From Candidatus Parcubacteria bacterium (GTDB lineage: Bacteria > Patescibacteriota > Saccharimonadia > UBA4664 > JBIOIQ01), in NCBI GenBank assembly GCA_963718875.1, contig OY970378.1, positions 132,396 to 196,395 of the forward strand: a stretch of 64,000 nucleotides of DNA. Reading direction: 5' to 3'. A model generated the notes under the pieces. It was not told the DNA's origin and did not search any database. It saw only the letters and a program-made list of their open reading frames with translations. The position numbers were made by a program, and so were the translations under genes. Positions 270 to 57,403 of the stretch are shown here, piece after piece. The first letter of the stretch is position 1. Every line of letters starts with the position of its first letter.

Positions 270-359
270 TGGCGGAGAGGGTGGGATTTGAACCCACGAT
301 ACCCTTGCGGGCATACTGCTTTTCGAGAGCAGCGCCTTCAGCCACTCGGCCACCTCTCC
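270..359 (-). tRNA. tRNA-Ser (anticodon CGA)
   Basis: Reverse complement reads GGAGAGGTGGCCGAGTGG...TTCAAATCC...CTCTCCGCCA. Cloverleaf with long variable arm, anticodon loop CTCGAAA, encoded CCA. Confidence 0.85.
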
Positions 360-3882: not shown

Positions 3883-6496
3883 CTAACTTTGATAGTAACA
3901 ATTTGGCCTCGACTTGGCTATCACGAGTTTCTTGAACTACGCTGGCGGGGGCGGAAGAAACGTAACGCTCGTTGGCCAGGCGGGCGTCTAAACTATCTAG
4001 GTAAGCCTGCTTATCTGCCCTCATTTTTGACAACCTGGCTTTTCGGGCACTAATCAACGCATCGTCGGCTTGAATCCATGCTGGAGCGCTACTCCCGAGG
4101 TACAGACCACTCCCCTGCTCCACTAGTTTGATCTCTGTTACCCTTGCAAGATGTTTAATTAAATCTGCGTATTGAACCAGTTTTGGCTCAGTTGTGAGGA
4201 TGGTGGGCCTATCTAGCTTTTCTTCCGTTGCAATGGCTCTGATTTGGAGGGTTGTTTCTTGAATACGGTTAAAATCTTCAACTAAGCTTATATTAGCCGA
4301 ATTGTTAGAATCCGATTCCGGCCAAGGGCTAACAATCAGATCTGCTTTTTGCCACGGCATATTTTGCCAAATGGCCTCTGTTACGAAAGGCGCGGTGGGA
4401 TGAAGCAGTTTTAAAACTGTCTCTAACCCGTAAACTAAGAGGTCGTGATTAGGTGAAATCTTGGATGCCTCAACATACCAGTCGGCAAAATCGTCCCAAA
4501 GCAGAGCGTAAACCATCTGGCCGGCTTCGGAAAAGCGGTAGCTATCGATTGCTTTGGTAACATTCTGGACTGCTTGGTCGAGTTGGTATTTGATCCAGTG
4601 GTCGGCTGGGGCGTTGAGCTGTGGTTCGGCAGGTGTGTAATCGGCTGGCAGTTTGGCCAAGATGAACCTGGCAACATTCCATAGTTTGTTACAAAAATTG
4701 CGGTAGCCTTCAATTTTTTCTTTTCCGAGTGAGCCATTATTCCCGGGTGTAATCCCAATGGTTAGTGCTAAACGAAGAGCATCGGTGCCGTATGTGGCGG
4801 TGTATTCCAGAGGATTAATAACGTTTCCTTTAGATTTACTCATTTTTTTACCTTGTGCATCGTTGACCATGCCCCATAGGTAGACGGTTTTAAAGGGAGG
4901 CAGTTTAAAGCGATAATAACTAAACATCACCATCCGGCTCACCCATAAAAATATAATGTCGCGAGCAGTAGCCATTACGCTGGTGGGGTAAAACTGCTCA
5001 AAATCACCGGTGGCCATGAGGGTAGCGTAAGGCCATTGACCGCTAGAAAACCAAGTATCGAAGGTATCGGTTTCGGTCTCGTAATTATTTTTGCCATAGT
5101 AATCAATGGCTTCATCCTCATTGAAGGCAATGATGTAGGGTTTTTTGGTGGTATCAGAAGAGGCATTGTAATAGATGGGGATAGTTATTCCAAACCAGTT
5201 TTGGCGGCTAATGTTCCAATCGCGTAGGTTTTCCATCCAATCCAAGTAGACTTTTTCGTAACGCTTGGGGACTATTTTGATCTCACCATCCTTAACGGCC
5301 TTGATGGCTGGCTGTTTGAGTTCGGCCACCTTAAGCCACCACTGCTCAGTAACTAGTGGCTCTATTAGGGTGCCACAGCGGTCGTGAAAGGAAACGCTAT
5401 GCTTGTAATCCATTTCAACATGGTCAATTAACCCCCTTTCCTCAAGGTCATGGGCAACTTGCTCTCTAGCTTCGGCTACAGGCATGCCGGCGTATTTACC
5501 TGTTAGGTTGGTTAGCAGTCCGTCTGTCCCAATGGCTTGTTTGACCTCCAGGTCGTGACGTAACCCCATTTCCCAGTCGTTGGGGTCATGTGCAGGAGTA
5601 ACCTTAACTACACCTGTACCAAAGGCTGGGTCAACAAAGTCGTCTGCAATAACCTTGAGCTTGAATTTTCCAAGCAGGCCTTCGGCTTCAATCTCTTGGC
5701 CAATATACTGCGTGTAGCGCTCGTCCTTGGGGTTTACAGCAATGGCGGTATCACCAAATTTTGTTTCAGGCCGGACAGTAGCAAGTATAAACGGGCCGTA
5801 TTTGATGTAATATAACGGGTCAATTTGCTCACGATACTTGATTTCTAGGTCGCTAAAGCCGGAGCGGCAATGAGGGCACCAGTTAACTATGCGATTGCCG
5901 CGGTAAATTAAGCCATCATCGTGCATTTGCTTGAAGGTTTCATAGACGGTACGGACGATGTCGTCGTCCAAGGTGAACTTAAAACGGCTCCAATCGACGC
6001 TAAAGCCCAGGCTGCGGAGTTGAGCTGTTACATTGGCCATGTTCTTTTTTGTAAAAGCTAAGGCACTTTGATAAAACTGCTCACGACCGAGGTCAAATCG
6101 ACTTTTACCCTCTTTGGCCAGCTCGCGCTCGTAGACCACTTGAGTTTCGATACCAGCGTGGTCAGCTCCAGGGAGCCACAAGGTTGGATCCCCTTTCATG
6201 CGGTGGTATCTAGCCATAATGTCCTCGACCACATACATAACGTGGCCAGTGTGCAGGTCGCCGTTGGCATTAGGCGGTGGCATGATTACACTAAACGGCT
6301 CTCGATCAGGTATTGAGTTGTGAGTTGTGAGTTGTGAGTCATTTGTGCTTATCTCTCGACTCGCTTGAACTGAGCCTGTCGAATGGTCGACTCTTGACTC
6401 TTGACTCGAGGTGGGCTTGAAGGCGCCAGAATCTTCCCACATTTTATAAATGTCGGCCTCGTATTTGGCCGGTTCGTAACTTTTTGGTAACTCCAT
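3845..6496 (-). CDS. valS: valine--tRNA ligase (ValRS)
   Basis: 883 aa. HIGH motif (PPPNANGDLHTGH), KMSKS motif (KMSKSKGN), class I aaRS editing and anticodon-binding regions, C-terminal coiled coil. The N-terminus carries an extra ~30-aa low-complexity insert encoded by a tandem-heptamer palindromic segment (6300-6420). Confidence 0.92.
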   Translation of the reverse strand: MELPKSYEPAKYEADIYKMWEDSGAFKPTSSQESRVDHSTGSVQASREISTNDSQLTTHNSIPDREPFSVIMPPPNANGDLHTGHVMYVVEDIMARYHRMKGDPTLWLPGADHAGIETQVVYERELAKEGKSRFDLGREQFYQSALAFTKKNMANVTAQLRSLGFSVDWSRFKFTLDDDIVRTVYETFKQMHDDGLIYRGNRIVNWCPHCRSGFSDLEIKYREQIDPLYYIKYGPFILATVRPETKFGDTAIAVNPKDERYTQYIGQEIEAEGLLGKFKLKVIADDFVDPAFGTGVVKVTPAHDPNDWEMGLRHDLEVKQAIGTDGLLTNLTGKYAGMPVAEAREQVAHDLEERGLIDHVEMDYKHSVSFHDRCGTLIEPLVTEQWWLKVAELKQPAIKAVKDGEIKIVPKRYEKVYLDWMENLRDWNISRQNWFGITIPIYYNASSDTTKKPYIIAFNEDEAIDYYGKNNYETETDTFDTWFSSGQWPYATLMATGDFEQFYPTSVMATARDIIFLWVSRMVMFSYYRFKLPPFKTVYLWGMVNDAQGKKMSKSKGNVINPLEYTATYGTDALRLALTIGITPGNNGSLGKEKIEGYRNFCNKLWNVARFILAKLPADYTPAEPQLNAPADHWIKYQLDQAVQNVTKAIDSYRFSEAGQMVYALLWDDFADWYVEASKISPNHDLLVYGLETVLKLLHPTAPFVTEAIWQNMPWQKADLIVSPWPESDSNNSANISLVEDFNRIQETTLQIRAIATEEKLDRPTILTTEPKLVQYADLIKHLARVTEIKLVEQGSGLYLGSSAPAWIQADDALISARKARLSKMRADKQAYLDSLDARLANERYVSSAPASVVQETRDSQVEAKLLLSKLDEQIQAISQAQK

Positions 6497-6588
6497 AGTC
6501 AGTTAAGTATAGCTAAGTAAGGCCTTAGGCTGCAAATGAACGCAAGCTAATTTTCATTTGATCAAGTTTAAGCCTCCATTGCCTACTT

Positions 6589-6630
6589 GTCATCCTGAAC
6601 CGTCAGCTGATGGTTGTTTCAGGATCTCTT
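6589..6630 (-). repeat. REP/RPE-like palindromic element (family 1, AGATCC-hairpin-GGATGAC)
   Basis: GTCATCCTGAAC...GTTTCAGGATCTCTT is the reverse complement of AAGAGATCCTGAAAC...GTTCAGGATGAC. Matches copies at 26768, 32790, 36929 and others. Confidence 0.6.
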
Positions 6631-6654
6631 AAACTAATTTTTTACATGTTCAAC

Positions 6655-6790
6655 AGATCCAAAAGCGCAGTTATGTTTCAAAATGCTGAAAGCGTTTTTT
6701 CTGCGTGAAAACATAAGCGTTATGCAAATTGGCTAACTTTTAATCTTTGAATTTTGGAACTTTTTGCTTGTGAACTAATTTGATGGTTGG
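6655..6790 (+). repeat. direct repeat copy 1 (about 110 bp, terminator-like hairpin AAACGCT-CAA-AGCGTTT plus CATAA-GCG-TTATG)
   Basis: About 85% identical to 7141-7270 (shared ...GTGAAAACATAAGCGTTATGCAAAYTGGCTAA...). Confidence 0.6.
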
Positions 6791-27457: not shown

Positions 27458-28659
27458 GCGGGGGAGCAGAGGATTCGACTCAGTTTAAGCGCCCATATTT
27501 AGTAATACCCAAACTGATTGAGCAACCTACTTGGGGTGGTACTTATATTGCGGAATTCAAGCAATGGGATATAAAACCGTCTTTAGCGGGTTCAAAAATA
27601 GGCCAGTCGTACGAGTTATTTTCTGGGAGTAACCTATCTTTATTGGATTCAAGTAAAGACCCCTTGTTTGAGGGCGAAATTACCGATCGTGATGAGGTGC
27701 AAAACCCTACTAGTCCCGAGAATTCGGTTAGTTTGGCAAGCTTGATCGAGATGTCGGCCAAAGACACTTTGGGGAGCGCTCGAGCAGTGCGCAGCGGCCG
27801 CAAGTTTGATTTGTTGATTAAGTTTACACAGTCATTAGGCAACTCTTTTCAAATTCACATCAAAGATGGGTTGGAAGACCCATGGTGGAAGCCAAAGCCC
27901 GAGTCGTGGTATTACCTGGAGCCCGGGCTGATAACTTTAGGAGTTAAATCGGGGGTTGATTGGGGGGATTATGAGGCGGCAGTGTCGTCTGTGGCCGAAG
28001 CTATGACTGGCTTGGAGCGCCAAATTTCTACTGGAGAGCTAGACTACGACGAGGCGCAAGCTGAAGTTCATAGTTTGCTGGAGCGCTACGATCCTTGGGT
28101 ATATGTTAATACAGTCGAGGTTAAAAAAGATCAGTTGGTGGATCTTTCGGCAGGAGCTCTGCACCATTCTTGGGAAGAAGATTCGGTAAAAATCCCTTTA
28201 GGGAATGTCTTGTATGAATTGCAACTTGAGGCTATGGATGATGTCTCGACTATAAGGGTGTTTGATAAAGGCAAGATGACCAGAGGTGGGTCGCTGCGTA
28301 AGCTTAATATTTCCGATTATTTTCGGCTGATCGATCGAACTCCAGAGGCTAATGATCCTAAGAACCATATGGGGGAACCGACGGATCTAATTAAAACGGC
28401 GGAGTATGGACTATCTAGGTTACTTAGTACCAAATATTACACTTTGAATAAACTATTGCTTTTAACTCCGACGGCCTCTTATAACGAACGGATTGACCAG
28501 TTCCGACATTTGTTTGTGCGCAAAGGCGAAATCCAAGTTTCAACTGAATTGGGGAGTGTCATTGTAAGCCAGGGGCACGCCTGTTTTATCCCAGCTGGAG
28601 CAATGGAATATAGAGTTGAGTGCAAACGCCCAGCTACTGAAGTGCTAATAAGTTACTAG
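27454..28659 (+). CDS. cupin-fold sugar isomerase, type I mannose-6-phosphate isomerase-like (tentative)
   Basis: PTWGGTYI N-terminal motif resembling class I PMI. 401 aa. 4-nt overlap with the upstream pgi-like gene. Confidence 0.45.
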   Translation: MSGGAEDSTQFKRPYLVIPKLIEQPTWGGTYIAEFKQWDIKPSLAGSKIGQSYELFSGSNLSLLDSSKDPLFEGEITDRDEVQNPTSPENSVSLASLIEMSAKDTLGSARAVRSGRKFDLLIKFTQSLGNSFQIHIKDGLEDPWWKPKPESWYYLEPGLITLGVKSGVDWGDYEAAVSSVAEAMTGLERQISTGELDYDEAQAEVHSLLERYDPWVYVNTVEVKKDQLVDLSAGALHHSWEEDSVKIPLGNVLYELQLEAMDDVSTIRVFDKGKMTRGGSLRKLNISDYFRLIDRTPEANDPKNHMGEPTDLIKTAEYGLSRLLSTKYYTLNKLLLLTPTASYNERIDQFRHLFVRKGEIQVSTELGSVIVSQGHACFIPAGAMEYRVECKRPATEVLISY

Positions 28660-31214: not shown

Positions 31215-31305
<91 letters not shown>

Positions 31306-54513: not shown

Positions 54514-54525
54514 CGTCAGCTTTGG

Positions 54526-54554
54526 TTGACAATAATTTATAAACGTGCTATACT
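54526..54554 (+). promoter_or_regulatory. strong sigma-70 promoter (TTGACA-17-TATACT)
   Basis: Near-consensus elements with optimal spacing. The transcript starts in GC-rich DNA with no RBS-associated ORF. Confidence 0.6.
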
Positions 54555-54560
54555 GCTTAA

Positions 54561-55056
54561 GCTACGTTTGAAGGGTTAAGCCTGTGTTTTACCCTGATTA
54601 CTCCTTCGGACCCTCCAAGGGAGTGCGCAAGCTCGTAGTAGTTTTCCCGAGAAAGGGGAAATCGATGAACCTCCTCATGGGAGGCGGCGGCCTCTAGCCG
54701 TCGTCCAATGCGAGACACCTCCGGCCATCCAGGCTGAGAACCTCGCATCGCAACACCTGGATCTGCCGGTCGGGCATTGGCCCGGTATCGACACGATCGA
54801 GCGATGACCGCGAGTATGGCGGTCAAAAAAAGCCAGATCTGGCGGTGGGCATCAACCCCCACATACCGTCGAGATCGAACAGCACCCGCGTTCAACGCGG
54901 TCGCAGTTGCAAAAGTAATACTTCCAAACATCGGCTCCTTTGGGGCCACACCGTTTGCTGGAGGGCATGGAACCGGGAATCGCCTGGTAACCACCCTCCA
55001 GCAAACGGAACACATTTTATGAAGCTGTATTTGCACGGCAATGGCCGTGTTTTTTA
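54561..55056 (+). ncRNA. candidate ~500-nt structured ncRNA (promoter to terminator)
   Basis: GC-rich and hairpin-dense. Ends at CACGGCAATGGCCGTG plus TTTTTT (55034-55056). The overlapping ORFs are antisense or RBS-less. Confidence 0.35.
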
Positions 55057-55401
55057 TGCATTATTCCCTGAGCCTGAATGACGGCAGTCAGGCTTGTCGA
55101 AAAAAAAGGGGGGGTTAATGGCCTTCGACTAGGCTCAGGCAGTAGCTAAGTTTACTTTTGCCGACATTAATTTTAGTTACTTTAACAGATACGAAACAAA
55201 GAATTTTAATAAAAACTGTAAAAAAGTATTGACATAAATATATTATGTATGCTAGGCTTGTGAAGTTGTGAAAATAACGTCAAATGTTATGGACACAATA
55301 GTACATTTACTTTTTGTTCTTGCTTACTATTGCATTAACTTTCCGTCAATTGAGCTAAACATTTAACTTAGTTGTCGGAAAGCTATGGGAGGGGGTGAGC
55401 A

Positions 55402-55560
55402 ATGGACGAGTTCGAATACATTCTCTTGCTTGCGCTGTTGATGGGCTATTCGCCCTTCGACATCTGCATGTTCTTCTTTGGGCTGGGCTGCGAGAGCGGC
55501 CACGCCTGTGCGAGGGAGCAGCAGGAGCGCGAGTGGGAGCAGGCCCGGATCGGCTACTAG
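55402..55560 (+). CDS. small membrane protein (52 aa), candidate
   Basis: GGAGGGGGTGAGCA-ATG RBS. Hydrophobic core plus Cys-containing tail. Immediately upstream of the tRNA-like element. Confidence 0.35.
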   Translation: MDEFEYILLLALLMGYSPFDICMFFFGLGCESGHACAREQQEREWEQARIGY

Positions 55561-55590
55561 TCGGTGGAGTGGTCGCCCTAAGCGACTAAG

Positions 55591-55665
55591 AGGGCTGATT
55601 GGTTTCGCTTGGAATGGTCGCATTTGCGAACTGACCAAGCCCGGGTTCGATTCCCGGCAGCTCTA
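55591..55665 (+). ncRNA. tRNA-like element resembling the tmRNA tRNA-like domain (Ala identity features), no tag ORF
   Basis: 7-bp acceptor stem AGGGCTG/CAGCTCT with a G3:U70 wobble and A73 discriminator. Canonical T-arm CCGGG-TTCGATT-CCCGG. No D-stem. 5' AGGGCUGAUU and 3' GGGUUCGAUUCCCGGCAGCUC mimic the tmRNA ends, but only a short hairpin sits between them. Confidence 0.45.
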
Positions 55666-56037
55666 CTTATGGCGAAAAACAGCAGGAAAACGTTACGAGT
55701 TGGCCGAGCCAGCTCATCCTCCCAGAGGTTCGTCTGGGGCGTAATCTTCGGCCCAGACGCCGAACGATACGTCGAGATCACGTCTGATCTGCTTTTTCCT
55801 CCTACGGAGGCAGAAGCACGATGGAGGCTTGGCCTCCCTGACGGCACTCCGGTGTTGGTCGGCTGCCCCTAAGGCAGATCTGCGGCGTTCGGCTACGCCA
55901 AGAACCTTGAAGGAGCATAGCTCCAAGTTGCGCTCTGGGCTAGAGCGAAAACAAAAGCTGGCCAATAGGTGTGGCCATCAAGCTCGGTTCAGAGCAACCT
56001 GTAACCCATTCAAGCGTTAATTTTTTCGCGCTTGAAT

Positions 56038-56124
56038 GGGAGCTGTCATCCACTAAGTAGTGGATCTGATGAGTCCTTCGATTCGTCCTGCGGGTGCGGG
56101 ACTCGCTCAGGACGAAACGGCTGC
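56038..56124 (+). ncRNA. hammerhead ribozyme, type III (copy 1)
   Basis: Stem III 5' strand GGAGCUGUC^A. Stem I hairpin TCCACT-AAGT-AGTGGA. Core CUGAUGA. Stem II GUCC...GGAC with an internal hairpin. Then GAAAC and stem III 3' strand GGCUGC. Predicted cleavage after C56047. Confidence 0.8.
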
Positions 56125-56897
56125 ATATTTAACATTTGGGAGTCGACTTTCGAAACTGGCGCAGATAGTCTGCTTCGGTTTCGGAAGTCGCAAACTTCCA
56201 GCCAAGTCCCATACCAGAAAAACTCAAAAGGTTCCCGGGCCAATCGGGCGCGCTCCTGAGCGTGGTACCCAAAATGGGTGAGAGTAAGAGATAAAAGTCC
56301 GCGCCATCCTTAATAGGGCTGGTTAAGAAAGTCGGACTGGGGTAACTCTACTGGTTTAAAGTGCGTCTCTCTTCCCCAGGAGGTGTTGGGTGGAACCAGC
56401 AACTTCTTTTATAAGAGAACGCAATGTCTAAAAAGGATGATGCCTCTTTGGCAGTACGCCAAAGCAAGGCTCTCCCAAGTTCGCCACCAGAAACCAGTCG
56501 GTATCGCGTACGTCCGCGACTCGCGAGTGCGGCCCGCACTGTCATCCCCAGTAGGGAAGACAATATCCTCTCCCATCGTGGGAAAGGAAGGGTACTGGCA
56601 GTAATGTGAAAAGACCAAACCCGGACGATAACCCGTCCACGCTAGTCCAGGGGAAAAGCTCCTGGGATGCGGTCGCGAGAGTGGCGGGGGATGAACAAAT
56701 TGGTCTGGGGGAATCACTGGTGAAATTGCGGGTTCGGTCCCCAGAGTTGTTGGCCTGAAAAACCAATAATCTTCACATCCGAACTCGTAGGCTCGACGGC
56801 ACAGGAGTAAGCCATGGCGCAGGTTAAACCGCGACAAAAACTCCTTCTCGAAGAGAGAGCTCCTTGATCGCTTTAAGTGACCGAGTGAGACCTCTTC

Positions 56898-56984
56898 GAG
56901 GCAGTTCCTCCGATGTGTGTCGGAGCTGATGAGTCCTTCGATTCTTCCCATCTAAGTGGGATCGCTCAGGACGAAAACTGCGGG
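56898..56984 (+). ncRNA. hammerhead ribozyme, type III (copy 2)
   Basis: GAGGCAGUUC^ then stem I CTCCGA-TGTGTG-TCGGAG, CUGAUGAGUCC...GGACGAAA, stem III ACUGC. Stem I and the stem II insert differ from copy 1 but remain hairpins (compensatory changes). About 50 nt upstream of the RBS of the 57035 lipoprotein gene. Confidence 0.8.
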
Positions 56985-57034
56985 TTGCAACGGTTGGTTT
57001 GCGCTCTTTGTCTTTGTGAGAAAGGAGGCAGGGA

Positions 57035-57403
57035 ATGCAAACCAAAAGCAATACCCACCGGAGCCGCACGGTCATCGCGGCAGTCACATTTGCTCTGTTC
57101 GTCGCAGTCTCGACGTCGGCTTGTGCCAGCTCGCTGTGGAGCGTAACGCCTCTCCCCAGGATGTACGCCTGCAGCTACACGAGCCAGCCGACGCAGGGCC
57201 AGACACTGTCGGCCGTTGCCGTCGCGACCTACAACCGTCAAGGACAAGGGGTTGACGACTGGAAGGCACTGATTCGTGAGCGCAGCCACTACATTGGGGC
57301 TGACACAGCTGTTCTGGATCCCAACCTGACTCTCGTCATCCCGCGCATCTGTGAGGAGGGGGAGCAGTCGGGTTCGGTCAGCAGCGACGTTCCGGCGTCT
57401 TAG
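57035..57403 (+). CDS. lipoprotein (hypothetical, weak LysM-like C-terminus)
   Basis: AAAGGAGG RBS. Signal plus lipobox STSAC. 122 aa. Confidence 0.55.
   Translation: MQTKSNTHRSRTVIAAVTFALFVAVSTSACASSLWSVTPLPRMYACSYTSQPTQGQTLSAVAVATYNRQGQGVDDWKALIRERSHYIGADTAVLDPNLTLVIPRICEEGEQSGSVSSDVPAS

What the first reader, a model, noticed from the sequence alone, without database searches (positions are those of the whole stretch)
55591..55665. 75-nt tRNA-like element that mimics the tmRNA tRNA-like domain (alanine identity) without an mRNA domain
The 5' end AGGGCUGAUU... and 3' end ...GGGUUCGAUUCCCGGCAGCUCUA resemble the two termini of tmRNA (GGGGCUGAUU... / ...GGGUUCxAxUCCCxxCAGCUCCACCA). The acceptor stem is 7 bp with a G:U pair at position 3:70 and an A73 discriminator, which are the AlaRS identity elements. 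The T-arm is canonical and there is no D-stem, as in tmRNA. However only about 25 nt, a GGUCG/UGACC hairpin with an 11-nt loop, separate the halves. It is not a normal tRNA, since it lacks a 7-nt anticodon loop, and not a full ssrA. It lies in the same GC-rich island as the hammerheads, just after a 52-aa ORF with a strong RBS.
Basis: partly seen in the sequence, partly recalled or inferred. Interest (0 to 1): 0.7.

Follow-up and report, generated by a model that had tools for sequence, protein, structure and literature searches.

The report
Tag-less mini-tmRNA gene in a Saccharibacterium
A 75-nt gene encodes only the tRNA-like half of the ribosome-rescue RNA tmRNA, with no tag-coding part; it is a real, conserved member of a rare, already reported "TLD-only" class (first noted in mycobacteriophage DS6A) that I find to be common in uncultured phages, and it probably modulates or simplifies ribosome rescue.

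Summary
Window 55591-55665(+) folds into a 7-bp acceptor stem with G3:U70 and A73, a D-stem-less loop, a short closed P2 helix and a canonical T arm. Rfam's tmRNA model spans it end to end with a 314-nt deletion (44.8 bits; cut-off 47). ARAGORN and the tRNA model do not call it.

It is conserved at the same locus in three other Saccharimonadales contigs, with compensatory acceptor-stem changes. Pattern scans found about 52 further copies in uncultured phage contigs. On 45 distinct sequences, 96% of cells pair against 72% after shuffling.

The class is not new. The tmRNA database lists "Mycobacterium phage DS6A (TLD only)" and nine "Standard, no CDS" sequences, three of them from Patescibacteria genomes. 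My model hits the DS6A element at 52 bits. A similar TLD-only molecule is reported to inhibit E. coli tmRNA, perhaps by titrating SmpB.

Here it lies in a lineage-specific operon between two small conserved ORFs, upstream of two hammerheads that bracket an 860-nt conserved RNA. It is not an att remnant.

Most likely it is excised as a small SmpB-binding RNA, possibly alanyl-charged, that cannot tag. Whether it is accessory or the genome's only ssrA could not be tested.

Verdict: new member of a known kind; moderate interest.

The parts
55229..55258 (+). Promoter of the operon: TTGACA (55229-55234), 18-nt spacer whose last three bases are an extended -10 TGC, then TAGGCT (55253-55258).
   Evidence: Read from the sequence. 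The same TTGACA..TGCTAnnnT arrangement is conserved in L002, L003 and L062. The generic promoter scan did not list it because the -10 hexamer is weak.
55402..55560 (+). ORF1, 52 aa, behind a strong ribosome-binding site (GGGAGGGGGTGA). Small hydrophobic, Cys/His-containing protein with no Pfam family.
   Evidence: ORF list. tblastn gives 43-46% identity to the syntenic ORFs in L002 and L003. L062 has a 54-aa ORF at the same position. The only database homologue is a JGI protein at 81% identity. No Pfam hit.
55591..55665 (+). TLD-only tmRNA homologue (mini-ssrA), 75 nt, ending at discriminator A73. No CCA is encoded; the next bases are CUU.
   Evidence: RF00023 44.8 bits; family model R1 58.6 bits; fold; family covariation.
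55591..55597 (+). 5' strand of the acceptor stem (AGGGCUG). It pairs with 55658-55664 (CAGCUCU) and contains G3:U70.
   Evidence: Compared with L062 (GGGGGUG/CACCUCC) there are two compensatory double changes, at 1:72 and 5:68.
55607..55640 (+). P2-like helix GCUUGG/CCAAGC enclosing a small hairpin CGCA-UUUG-UGCG (55618-55629). It stands in place of the roughly 300-nt pseudoknot and mRNA-like region of a standard tmRNA.
   Evidence: Minimum-free-energy fold. All 7 P2 pairs covary in the family alignment.
55641..55657 (+). T arm: CCGGG UUCGAUU CCCGG.
55669..55872 (+). ORF2, 67 aa. Its ATG lies only 3 nt after A73 and has no ribosome-binding site of its own.
   Evidence: Translation and tblastn: 49% identity to L002 over residues 17-67. 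L062 has an in-frame 61-aa homologue with its own ribosome-binding site, starting 48 nt after its TLD. No Pfam hit.
56040..56123 (+). Hammerhead 1 (type III). Predicted cleavage after GUC, between 56047 and 56048.
   Evidence: RF00008 30.1 bits, below its gathering score of 48.5. Core motif found by pattern. Conserved in L002, L003 and L062.
56048..56907 (+). 860-nt conserved non-coding RNA that the two hammerheads would release.
   Evidence: Three-way alignment with long blocks of identity. All six reading frames score alike in tblastx. No Rfam hit at E <= 10.
56901..56981 (+). Hammerhead 2. Predicted cleavage after UUC, between 56907 and 56908. It sits about 50 nt upstream of the next ORF.
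   Evidence: Core motif CUGAUGA..GAAA with stems.
57035..57403 (+). ORF3, 122 aa, with a ribosome-binding site (AAAGGAGG). It is the last recognisable cistron of the unit.
   Evidence: ORF list. 39% identity to the L003 ORF at 6341-6670, which is itself preceded by a hammerhead. No Pfam hit.

Best explanation
The element is a gene for a "TLD-only" tmRNA homologue, the form the tmRNA database calls "Standard, no CDS". It has a tRNA-Ala-like acceptor/T-arm module, a tmRNA-type D-loop, and a short closed P2 hairpin where the pseudoknots and tag reading frame would normally be.

It is transcribed from the promoter at 55229 as part of a polycistronic RNA: ORF1, TLD, ORF2, hammerhead, 860-nt RNA, hammerhead, ORF3.

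Inferred steps. RNase P cuts at its 5' end. An endonuclease such as RNase Z, or exonucleases, trims after A73, and the CCA-adding enzyme completes the 3' end. The freed 75-nt RNA binds SmpB and can probably be charged by AlaRS through G3:U70 and A73.

Having no resume codon, tag or stop codon, it cannot complete trans-translation. It would therefore compete with a standard tmRNA for SmpB (and for AlaRS, EF-Tu and stalled ribosomes), damping tagging, as reported for a similar TLD-only molecule in E. coli. At most it would donate a single alanine.

As a by-product, its excision separates the ORF1 and ORF2 messages and leaves ORF2 with a 3-nt leader.

The module looks acquired, in line with the family's abundance in phages, and then inherited vertically in a small Saccharimonadales clade.

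Shown: identity, structure, conservation, family membership, operon context. Inferred: processing, SmpB binding, charging, the inhibitory role, and the origin.
For: Identity and structure:
- RF00023 aligns end to end with the mRNA-like region deleted.
- Family model R1 scores the element 58.6 bits (it was a training sequence) against 18 bits or less for the window's true tRNAs.
- In the 45-sequence alignment, 96.1% of cells are paired against 71.6% after shuffling (0 of 500 shuffles reach it). The covariation score is 0.60 against 0.13, and slid-register controls reach at most 0.10. All 7 P2 pairs covary.

Selection in this lineage:
- The element is present at the same locus in L002, L003/L004 and L062.
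- The window differs from L062 by two compensatory double changes in the acceptor stem.
- TLD nucleotide identity among the four genomes is 69-91%. That is similar to or above the flanking TrmB gene (70-75%) and above ORF1 and ORF2 (49-72%).

Alanine identity:
- G3:U70 and A73 are present in all four synteny-derived copies.
- With the 3' strand left free, the viral scan gave 56 hits, of which 2 are false positives. Of the 54 real hits, 52 keep G3:U70 and A73.

Precedent and mechanism:
- R1 hits phage DS6A at 28478-28557 with 52.1 bits. RF00023 scores that element 43.2 bits with a 312-nt deletion, the same picture as in the window.
- Hudson et al. 2014 list "DS6A (TLD only)" and state that a similar molecule, chargeable or not, strongly inhibits tmRNA, perhaps by titrating SmpB (citing Mao et al. 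2009).

Accessory and acquired:
- The island is absent from the same locus in relatives whose TrmB is 63-65% identical.
- About 78% of Patescibacteria assemblies carry a standard tmRNA.
- Phage copies sit next to exonuclease, portal, capsid, ribonucleotide reductase and ParB-like genes, not integrases.

Operon:
- No + strand intrinsic terminator lies between 55250 and 57000 apart from two weak hairpin matches that I do not regard as terminators.
Against: - No transcript, processing, charging or SmpB-binding data exist for this element.
- It does not encode CCA, although 4 of 4 tRNA genes in the window and 4 of 4 in L005 do.
- The window copy is among the more divergent members. It has A1:U72 instead of G1:C72, G in place of a family position that is A in at least 90% of sequences (the A of GGAC before the T stem), and low scores.
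- L002 has a G2-A71 mismatch.
- Whether this genome has a standard ssrA or smpB could not be checked. None is in the window.
- The inhibition experiment was done in E. coli with a similar molecule, not this one. I know it only through two citing papers, because the original paper was not available.
Confidence: 0.5

Rival explanations
1. It is the organism's only ssrA: a reduced tmRNA that rescues stalled ribosomes without tagging. Ala-TLD with SmpB accepts the nascent chain, and release depends on a codon-independent factor or on repeated alanine addition. This is the role proposed for jakobid mitochondrial tmRNA and perhaps for the WWE3 "no CDS" group.
For: - Jakobid mt-tmRNAs lack the mRNA-like domain, keep G3:U70 and A73, and are thought to be restricted to freeing ribosomes.
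- No standard tmRNA lies in the 64-kb window.
- The alanine identity elements are under selection.
Against: - The element sits in a lineage-specific island, not at an ancestral ssrA locus. Relatives with 63-65% TrmB identity have neither a tmRNA nor a TLD there.
- Most Patescibacteria assemblies have a standard tmRNA.
- Phages carry the same form although their hosts have full tmRNAs.
- The window copy is somewhat degenerate.
- 64 kb of a 1.19-Mb genome says little about absence elsewhere.
Confidence: 0.2
2. It acts only in cis, as an RNA-processing punctuation mark. A tRNA-like shape recruits RNase P and 3' tRNA-processing enzymes to cut the polycistronic transcript between ORF1 and ORF2, just as the hammerheads cut further downstream. 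The excised RNA has no function of its own.
For: - The operon is punctuated by self-cleaving ribozymes placed between cistrons: window hammerheads 1 and 2, and a third hammerhead in L003 about 20 nt before an ORF.
- The window's ORF2 starts 3 nt after A73 without a ribosome-binding site, and L007, L011 and L032 have an ATG 2 nt after A73.
- In eight phage contigs (exonuclease, portal, ParB-like and one unannotated 89-codon ORF) the upstream gene's stop codon abuts or overlaps TLD nucleotides 1-8.
Against: - RNase P needs only an acceptor/T-arm minihelix (established knowledge). Yet the family keeps tmRNA-specific features that processing does not need: G3:U70 and A73 in 52 of 54, the GG.UU.GAC D-loop, GGAC before the T stem, and a covarying P2 helix with an AAA(A/G)CC-hairpin motif.
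- L062 and L003 have 48-78-nt spacers and their own ribosome-binding sites before ORF2, so the tight junction is peculiar to the window.
Confidence: 0.2
3. It is a decaying remnant: the joined ends of an ssrA gene after internal deletion, or an att-site scar of an element that integrated into ssrA.
For: - It scores below the Rfam gathering cut-off.
- The window copy has A1:U72 and a change at a conserved A.
- L002 has an acceptor mismatch and an apparently frameshifted ORF2.
- No CCA is encoded.
Against: - The changes in the acceptor stem are compensatory.
- The TLD is as conserved as, or more conserved than, its protein-coding neighbours.
- No integrase is nearby and neither half is repeated in the window.
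- The neighbours are housekeeping genes.
- The same compact architecture recurs in about 52 phage contigs with strong covariation.
Confidence: 0.05

Closest known systems
Mycobacteriophage DS6A "TLD only" tmRNA (tmRNA Website ID 11587; Mao et al. 2009, RNA Biol 6:355; Hudson et al. 2014, PMC4131195)
   Same: - About 80 nt, with a 7-bp acceptor stem carrying G3:U70 and A73, and C74 but no CCA.
- tmRNA-type D-loop, a short closed P2 helix with an AAAACCGC..GCGG hairpin, and a T arm.
- Same behaviour with Rfam: 43.2 bits for DS6A against 44.8 for the window, both with a deletion of about 312 nt.
- Hit by my family model at 52 bits.
   Different: - DS6A is a temperate actinophage and its element lies between gp33 and a DNA polymerase III gene.
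- The window element is chromosomal, in a Saccharimonadales genome, between two small ORFs in a hammerhead-containing operon.
- The window copy has A1:U72 and a one-nucleotide-shorter D-loop.
Jakobid and oomycete mitochondrial tmRNA lacking the mRNA-like region (Jacob et al. 2004; Burger et al. 2013, PMC3590771; Rfam RF02544)
   Same: - No tag reading frame.
- Keeps G3:U70 and A73.
- CCA is added after transcription.
- The Jakoba libera gene is contiguous.
   Different: - Mostly circularly permuted two-piece genes of alphaproteobacterial descent.
- They are the only ssrA of the organelle and have a nucleus-encoded SmpB.
- No RF02544 hit was listed at this locus at E <= 10.
Other "Standard, no CDS" entries of the 2025 tmRNA database (PMC11915505): ~65-bp plastid genes of Mallomonadaceae, Nasuia, and 9FT-COMBO-53-11 sp001772805 (Patescibacteria)
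   Same: - CDS-less, standard gene order.
- One group belongs to the same phylum as the window.
   Different: - By its name, the Patescibacteria group corresponds to candidate division WWE3 bacterium RBG_19FT_COMBO_53_11, not Saccharimonadales. This link is an inference from the name.
Standard one-piece bacterial tmRNA (Rfam RF00023)
   Same: - The tRNA-like domain is homologous: termini, G3:U70, A73, D-loop, T arm, and the start of P2.
   Different: - No pseudoknots, resume codon, tag ORF or stop codon. Only 22 nt lie between the P2 strands.
- Score below the gathering cut-off.
- Not called by ARAGORN.
tRNA punctuation and hammerhead-punctuated bacterial or phage operons
   Same: - Structured RNAs placed between cistrons of one transcript, which would be cleaved by RNase P or would self-cleave.
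   Different: - The family keeps tmRNA-specific and AlaRS-specific features that mere punctuation would not require.

Membership tests
tmRNA, standard form (RF00023) | tRNA-like domain: 7-bp acceptor stem with G3:U70, discriminator A73, T arm GGUUCGAnUCC, and a D-loop without a stem. | tested here: met
   Sequence and fold. Rfam alignment of both termini with posterior probabilities marked '*'.
tmRNA, standard form (RF00023) | Reaches the Rfam gathering score (47 bits). | tested here: not met
   The window scores 44.8 bits and L002 36.5. Relatives pass: L003 68.8, L009 72.0 and L007 65.4.
tmRNA, standard form (RF00023) | mRNA-like domain: resume codon, tag reading frame and in-frame stop. | tested here: not met
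   Only 22 nt lie between the P2 strands. ARAGORN finds no tag peptide. My own reading of the frames from GCC in the printed sequences of several family members shows no conserved reading frame.
tmRNA, standard form (RF00023) | Pseudoknots PK1-PK4. | tested here: not met
   314 model positions are deleted in the alignment.
tmRNA, standard form (RF00023) | Partner protein SmpB encoded in the genome. | not testable with these tools
   tblastn with E. coli SmpB finds nothing in the window or in any locus. Only 64 kb of a 1.19-Mb genome is available.
TLD-only tmRNA ("Standard, no CDS"; type example phage DS6A) | A complete tmRNA TLD in standard gene order, with P2 closed by a short hairpin, total length about 65-90 nt. 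| tested here: met
   The family ranges from 66 to 92 nt.
TLD-only tmRNA ("Standard, no CDS"; type example phage DS6A) | Homology to the DS6A element. | tested here: met
   Model R1, built without DS6A and including the window element, hits DS6A at 28478-28557 with 52.1 bits, E = 4e-9. It is the only hit in the 60.6-kb genome. The shared inner motif AAAACCGC..GCGG is seen in L062 and DS6A.
TLD-only tmRNA ("Standard, no CDS"; type example phage DS6A) | Inhibits trans-translation or titrates SmpB. | not testable with these tools
   Known only from the literature, for a similar molecule in E. coli.
tRNA (RF00005) | Cloverleaf with a D stem and an anticodon arm carrying a 7-nt loop. | tested here: not met
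   No RF00005 hit at the site, whether at gathering score or at E <= 10. ARAGORN is negative. The fold has no such arms.
Mitochondrial tmRNA (RF02544) and permuted tmRNA (RF04321) | Match to the family model; permuted gene order (3' half upstream of 5' half). | tested here: not met
   No RF02544 hit at E <= 10. RF04321 scores only 16.8 bits, on the T arm alone. The gene order is standard.
att-site or ssrA fragment of an integrated element | An adjacent integrase and a direct repeat of the ssrA 3' segment at the other end of the element. | tested here: not met
   With up to 3 mismatches, no second copy of either half exists in the window. The flanks are TrmB-like, PadR-like and PolA genes. Phage copies lie next to non-integrase genes.

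The most novel reading that the evidence does not exclude
In this Saccharimonadales clade the TLD-only RNA is the sole ssrA, or a domesticated phage anti-trans-translation RNA placed under the cell's own control. Ribosome rescue in a free bacterial lineage would then run without a tag, by single or repeated template-free alanine addition followed by codon-independent release. More broadly, TLD-only tmRNAs would be a widespread phage tool for switching off or bypassing host protein tagging, here embedded in an operon processed entirely by ribozymes (RNase P plus hammerheads).
Probability: 0.2. Interest if true: 0.75.

Novelty: new member of a known kind. Interest (0 to 1): 0.5.

Why it matters
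TLD-only tmRNAs have so far been a footnote: one phage (DS6A), a few organelles, and nine "no CDS" entries among 97,179 database sequences.

This window adds a chromosomal Saccharimonadales lineage. Following it up shows about 52 further copies in uncultured phage contigs, with conserved alanine identity elements and a strongly covarying structure. ARAGORN did not recognise any of them as such.

If these RNAs titrate SmpB, or deliver alanine without a tag, they are a common phage-borne handle on bacterial ribosome rescue. Trans-translation is being pursued as an antibiotic target, so that would be of practical interest.

For genome annotation, the practical point is that such genes fall just below the Rfam tmRNA cut-off and go unannotated. 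The DS6A GenBank record carries no feature for its copy.

Tried and rejected
- Genome-collection scan with an exact 21-mer from the 5' half. The only hit was a chance match inside a coding region of a MAG labelled Neisseria, with no RNA there.
- Viral scan with only the D-loop and T-arm motif. Apart from two re-hits of known copies (L012, L013), the matches in the new loci were ordinary tRNAs or chance matches: model R1 found none, and none had acceptor complementarity in register.
- blastn of two phage TLDs and two flanking regions against 50,697 cultured phage genomes found no TLD-bearing relative.
- The closest cultured relative of the exonuclease-TLD clade, Pontimonas phage phiPsal1, has no TLD.
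- att-site remnant hypothesis: rejected.
- Permuted two-piece tmRNA: rejected, because the gene order is 5' half then 3' half. ARAGORN's two "tmRNA*" calls on L027 and L032 carry implausible tags.
- Hidden mini reading frame inside the P2 loop: my own reading of the frames from GCC in the printed sequences shows they are not conserved. Rejected.
- Hammerheads near the phage TLDs: a crude motif search found none adjacent to them, so the hammerhead association is specific to the Saccharimonadales island.
- A conserved block of the 860-nt RNA was not found in viral contigs.
- An ORF1 homologue search returned only the window protein itself and one JGI protein.
- The original paper by Mao et al. 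2009 could not be retrieved.
- Whether a standard ssrA or smpB exists elsewhere in the genome could not be tested.
Full report
**1. The observation**

Window 55591-55665(+) reads AGGGCUGAUUGGUUUCGCUUGGAAUGGUCGCAUUUGCGAACUGACCAAGCCCGGGUUCGAUUCCCGGCAGCUCUA.

It folds at -31.4 kcal/mol (z = -2.86 against shuffles) into four parts:
- a 7-bp acceptor stem containing G3:U70, followed by A73;
- nine unpaired nucleotides where a D arm would be;
- a 6-bp helix, GCUUGG/CCAAGC, capped by a small CGCA/UGCG hairpin;
- a canonical T arm, CCGGG-UUCGAUU-CCCGG.

ARAGORN reports only four tRNA-Ser genes in the window and nothing at this site. At gathering thresholds Rfam also reports only those tRNAs.

In a permissive 4-kb search, the Rfam tmRNA model RF00023 aligns from model position 1 to 374 with 314 positions deleted. 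It scores 44.8 bits against a cut-off of 47, E = 1e-15. The same search finds a type III hammerhead at 56040-56123 at 30.1 bits.

**2. The organism and the locus**

The flanking genes are DnaG, RpoD, two nucleotide kinases, a TrmB-like regulator, a PadR-like regulator and PolA. Homologues of the TrmB-like protein carry names such as "Candidatus Saccharimonadales bacterium" and "Patescibacteria group bacterium". The exact protein sits on a 1.19-Mb contig. The window is thus chromosomal DNA of a Saccharimonadales (Patescibacteria, CPR) bacterium.

The stretch from about 54520 to 57030 between the TrmB and PadR genes holds only two short conserved ORFs (ORF1 and ORF2) and is otherwise non-coding.

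**3. Conservation at the same locus**

I fetched the contigs that encode close TrmB homologues.

| Locus | TrmB identity | TLD position | Score |
|---|---|---|---|
| L062 | 83% | 2244-2322 | R1 73.2 bits |
| L002 | 78% | 4668-4748 | RF00023 36.5 bits |
| L003 (and L004) | 76% | 4250-4329 | RF00023 68.8 bits, above the cut-off |

 All share one architecture:
- a TTGACA promoter with an extended -10;
- a conserved 5' UTR;
- ORF1 of 52-56 aa behind a strong ribosome-binding site;
- the TLD;
- ORF2;
- a hammerhead, a conserved RNA of about 690-860 nt, and a second hammerhead (the 2.9-kb L062 contig ends soon after the first hammerhead).

A JGI contig whose TrmB is 87% identical also has a 52-aa ORF at the right distance, and that ORF is 81% identical to ORF1.

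Relatives at 63-65% TrmB identity (L005, L006, L063, L064) have no TLD at the locus.

The acceptor stem in L062 is GGGGGUG/CACCUCC, while the window has AGGGCUG/CAGCUCU. That amounts to two compensatory double substitutions, at pairs 1:72 and 5:68.

TLD nucleotide identity among the four genomes is 69-91%. The TrmB gene is 70-75% and ORF1 and ORF2 are 49-72%.

All four copies keep G3:U70 and A73. None encodes CCA: the following bases are CUU, CCG, CUG and CAA. By contrast, all four tRNA genes in the window and all four in L005 do encode CCA.

**4. A wider family**

A strict pattern scan of JGI metagenomes returned five loci, three of them distinct TLD-only elements:
- L007 and L011 are GC-rich; an ATG follows 2 nt after A73.
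- L009 and L010 are the same element, phage-like, with CCA encoded; RF00023 gives 72 bits.
- L008 was a false positive.

A scan of IMG/VR for GGGG.UGA...GG.U, then 25-55 nt, then the T arm and CA.CUCCA, returned 50 viral contigs. Each carries a 66-92-nt element of this shape.

ARAGORN did not recognise any of them as such. It made two implausible "permuted tmRNA" calls.

RNAalifold on 39 sequences predicts the acceptor stem, P2 and T arm, and 11 of the 19 pairs show compensatory changes.

I built a covariance model, R1, and used it to align 45 distinct sequences. On that alignment:
- 96.1% of cells form standard pairs, against 71.6% after shuffling (0 of 500 shuffles reach the observed value).
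- The covariation score is 0.60, against 0.13 after shuffling and at most 0.10 when the 3' partners are slid by 1-3 columns.
- All seven P2 pairs covary, as do acceptor pair 5:68 and the two outer T-stem pairs.

My search pattern had fixed the 3' strand, so I repeated the viral scan with that strand left free. This gave 56 hits:
- the 50 found before;
- two more copies (the same element on two contigs) with U6-G67 that still have G3:U70, A73 and CCA;
- one with G3:C70 (L182);
- one odd variant (L186);
- two false positives.

So 52 of the 54 real hits keep the AlaRS identity elements although nothing in the search required it. C follows A73 in 42 of 45 sequences, but a full CCA is present in only 8.

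**5. Context in phages**

The neighbouring genes are an Mre11/SbcD-like exonuclease (phrog_284), portal protein, major head protein, ribonucleotide reductase and ParB-like genes. None is an integrase.

In eight contigs the stop codon of the upstream same-strand ORF abuts or overlaps the start of the TLD:
- five in the exonuclease clade, where the stop is a TAA ending at position 0 or a TAG whose G is TLD nucleotide 1;
- one with a portal gene;
- one with a ParB-like gene, where the stop is the TGA at TLD positions 6-8;
- one with an unannotated 89-codon ORF (L051).

No SmpB homologue was found in any locus. The crude motif search found no hammerhead adjacent to the phage copies.

**6. What is already known**

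My first literature searches found only the jakobid precedent. Following citations of Jacob et al. 2004 then led to the tmRNA database papers.

Hudson, Lau and Williams 2014 list "Mycobacterium phage DS6A (TLD only)". [quoted passage not shown] 2009.

The 2025 database paper gives further numbers:
- It counts 9 unique "Standard, no CDS" sequences among 97,179.
- It mentions ~65-bp plastid genes, DS6A, Nasuia and "9FT-COMBO-53-11 sp001772805".
- Its Supplementary Table 2 gives, for Patescibacteria, 6,765 genomes, 5,252 standard tmRNAs and 3 "Standard NoCDS".

NCBI taxonomy holds "candidate division WWE3 bacterium RBG_19FT_COMBO_53_11". By its name, that group is WWE3 rather than Saccharimonadales; this is an inference.

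Model R1, built without DS6A, gives one hit in the DS6A genome: 28478-28557(+), 52.1 bits. The site lies between gp33 and gp34 and is not annotated in GenBank. RF00023 treats it exactly as it treats the window element, at 43.2 bits with a 312-nt deletion. It shares the inner AAAACCGC..GCGG motif with L062.

The window element is therefore a member of an already recognised, rare class.

**7. Mechanism**

Shown:
- a tmRNA TLD with no coding part;
- purifying selection on its helices and on the alanine identity elements;
- placement inside a polycistronic unit with no convincing internal terminator.

Inferred from established tmRNA biology:
- RNase P makes the 5' end.
- The 3' end is trimmed and CCA is added.
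- SmpB binds the D-loop and P2 region.
- AlaRS charges the RNA through G3:U70 and A73.
- With no resume codon, the RNA cannot complete trans-translation.

The reported behaviour of a similar molecule in E. coli makes competition for SmpB the best-supported effect. For a phage this would block tagging and degradation of products made from damaged messages.

For this bacterium I favour an acquired accessory modulator, with confidence 0.5, for three reasons:
- The island is lineage-specific.
- It is not at an ancestral ssrA locus.
- Standard tmRNAs are the rule in the phylum.

The alternatives are listed here with their confidences:
- The element is the genome's only, reduced ssrA, as in jakobids (0.2).
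- It serves only as an RNase P punctuation mark in an operon otherwise cut by hammerheads (0.2). The 3-nt gap between A73 and the ORF2 start codon, and the stop-codon overlaps in phages, speak for this. The retention of AlaRS-specific and tmRNA-specific features speaks against punctuation being the only role.
- It is a decaying remnant (0.05). This is contradicted by the compensatory changes and by the absence of integrases and repeats.

**8. Caveats**

- The window copy is among the more divergent members. It has A1:U72, a G where at least 90% of the family has A before the T stem, and a D-loop one nucleotide shorter.
- L002 has a G2-A71 mismatch and an apparent frameshift in ORF2. These may be assembly errors.
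- There are no expression data.
- The rest of the genome could not be inspected.
- Mao et al. 2009 was not readable here.

**9. Verdict**

The element is a new member of a known kind: a new bacterial lineage, a new operon context, and evidence that the class is far more common in phages than the literature suggests.

Interest is moderate, at 0.5.

The hammerhead-bracketed 860-nt conserved RNA next door may be the more novel object. It is recorded under things noticed in passing.

Noticed in passing
window 56048-56907 (+), bracketed by hammerheads at 56040-56123 and 56901-56981: Two same-strand type III hammerheads would release an 860-nt RNA with 5'-OH and 2',3'-cyclic phosphate ends, which makes it a candidate circular RNA. 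Its sequence has long blocks conserved in L002 and L003 (for example GGGGnAAUCACUGGU and UUCGGUCCCCnGAGUUG...GCCUGAAA). All six frames score alike in tblastx. There is no Rfam hit at E <= 10, and one conserved block is absent from IMG/VR.
   Followed up: partly
window 54526-55056 (+): Directly after the TrmB stop codon lies a near-consensus promoter (TTGACA, 17 nt, TATACT with an upstream TG; 11 of 12 matches). About 500 nt of GC-rich sequence with no convincing ORF follows, ending in a hairpin plus U-tract terminator at 55033-55056. The promoter is conserved after TrmB in all six Saccharimonadales loci compared, but the body evolves fast. There is no Rfam hit. It may be an unknown non-coding RNA.
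   Followed up: partly
L003 6262-6320 (+): A third hammerhead (CCCGACUC^CUCCGAUGUGUAUCGGGG CUGACGA UGGCUCAAAAGAGCC GAAA GUCGG) lies about 20 nt upstream of ORF 6341-6670. That ORF is homologous (39%) to window ORF 57035-57403, which is itself preceded by window hammerhead 2. In this clade hammerheads recur as leaders between cistrons.
   Followed up: partly
L014, L015, L018, L019, L055 (exonuclease), L054 (portal), L058 (ParB-like), L051 (unannotated 89-codon ORF): In these phage contigs the upstream gene's stop codon ends at or inside the TLD: a TAA ending at position 0, a TAG whose G is TLD nucleotide 1, or the TGA at TLD nucleotides 6-8. RNase P cleavage at the TLD 5' end would then leave the upstream mRNA with no 3' UTR, or without a stop codon.
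   Followed up: partly
L188 (Mycobacterium phage DS6A, JN698994) 28478-28557 (+): The published TLD-only tmRNA of DS6A has no feature in the GenBank record. It lies between gp33 and gp34 (annotated DNA polymerase III). The same phage encodes an RtcB-like RNA ligase (gp76).
   Followed up: yes
L182 2371-2460 (-); L186 4693-4763 (-): L182 is a family member with G3:C70 instead of G3:U70, so it may not be an AlaRS substrate. L186 is an aberrant copy that directly follows another ...CUCCACCA 3' end, which suggests tandem tRNA-like genes.
   Followed up: no
window 270-359, 1228-1320, 1451-1538 (all -) and 31215-31304 (+): The only tRNA genes in 64 kb are four tRNA-Ser isoacceptors (CGA, GCU, UGA, GGA). 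Three are clustered at the start of the window, and all encode CCA. L005 shows a similar tRNA-Ser cluster next to its TrmB gene.
   Followed up: no
L002 4745-4960: The ORF2 start (ATGGCTCGT...) is out of frame with the conserved ...WGV...LVGCP* part, and the L002 TLD has a G2-A71 mismatch. These are either assembly errors in this Logan contig or early decay of the module in that lineage.
   Followed up: no
L008 5449-5712 and 5729-5929: This was a false-positive locus (tRNA-Ile and tRNA-Ala in an rRNA operon). Its 23S rRNA gene carries two adjacent group I intron matches (33.6 and 55.7 bits).
   Followed up: no
L007 9734-9811 (-), L011 8831-8908 (-), L032 9953-10030 (-): In this GC-rich TLD subgroup, a ~55-66-codon ORF starts at an ATG 2 nt after A73. 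In L007 a small Cys-rich ORF ends about 100 nt upstream of the TLD; L011 is cut off at the contig end just upstream. The small ORF - TLD - small ORF layout recalls the window, but the proteins are unrelated.
   Followed up: partly
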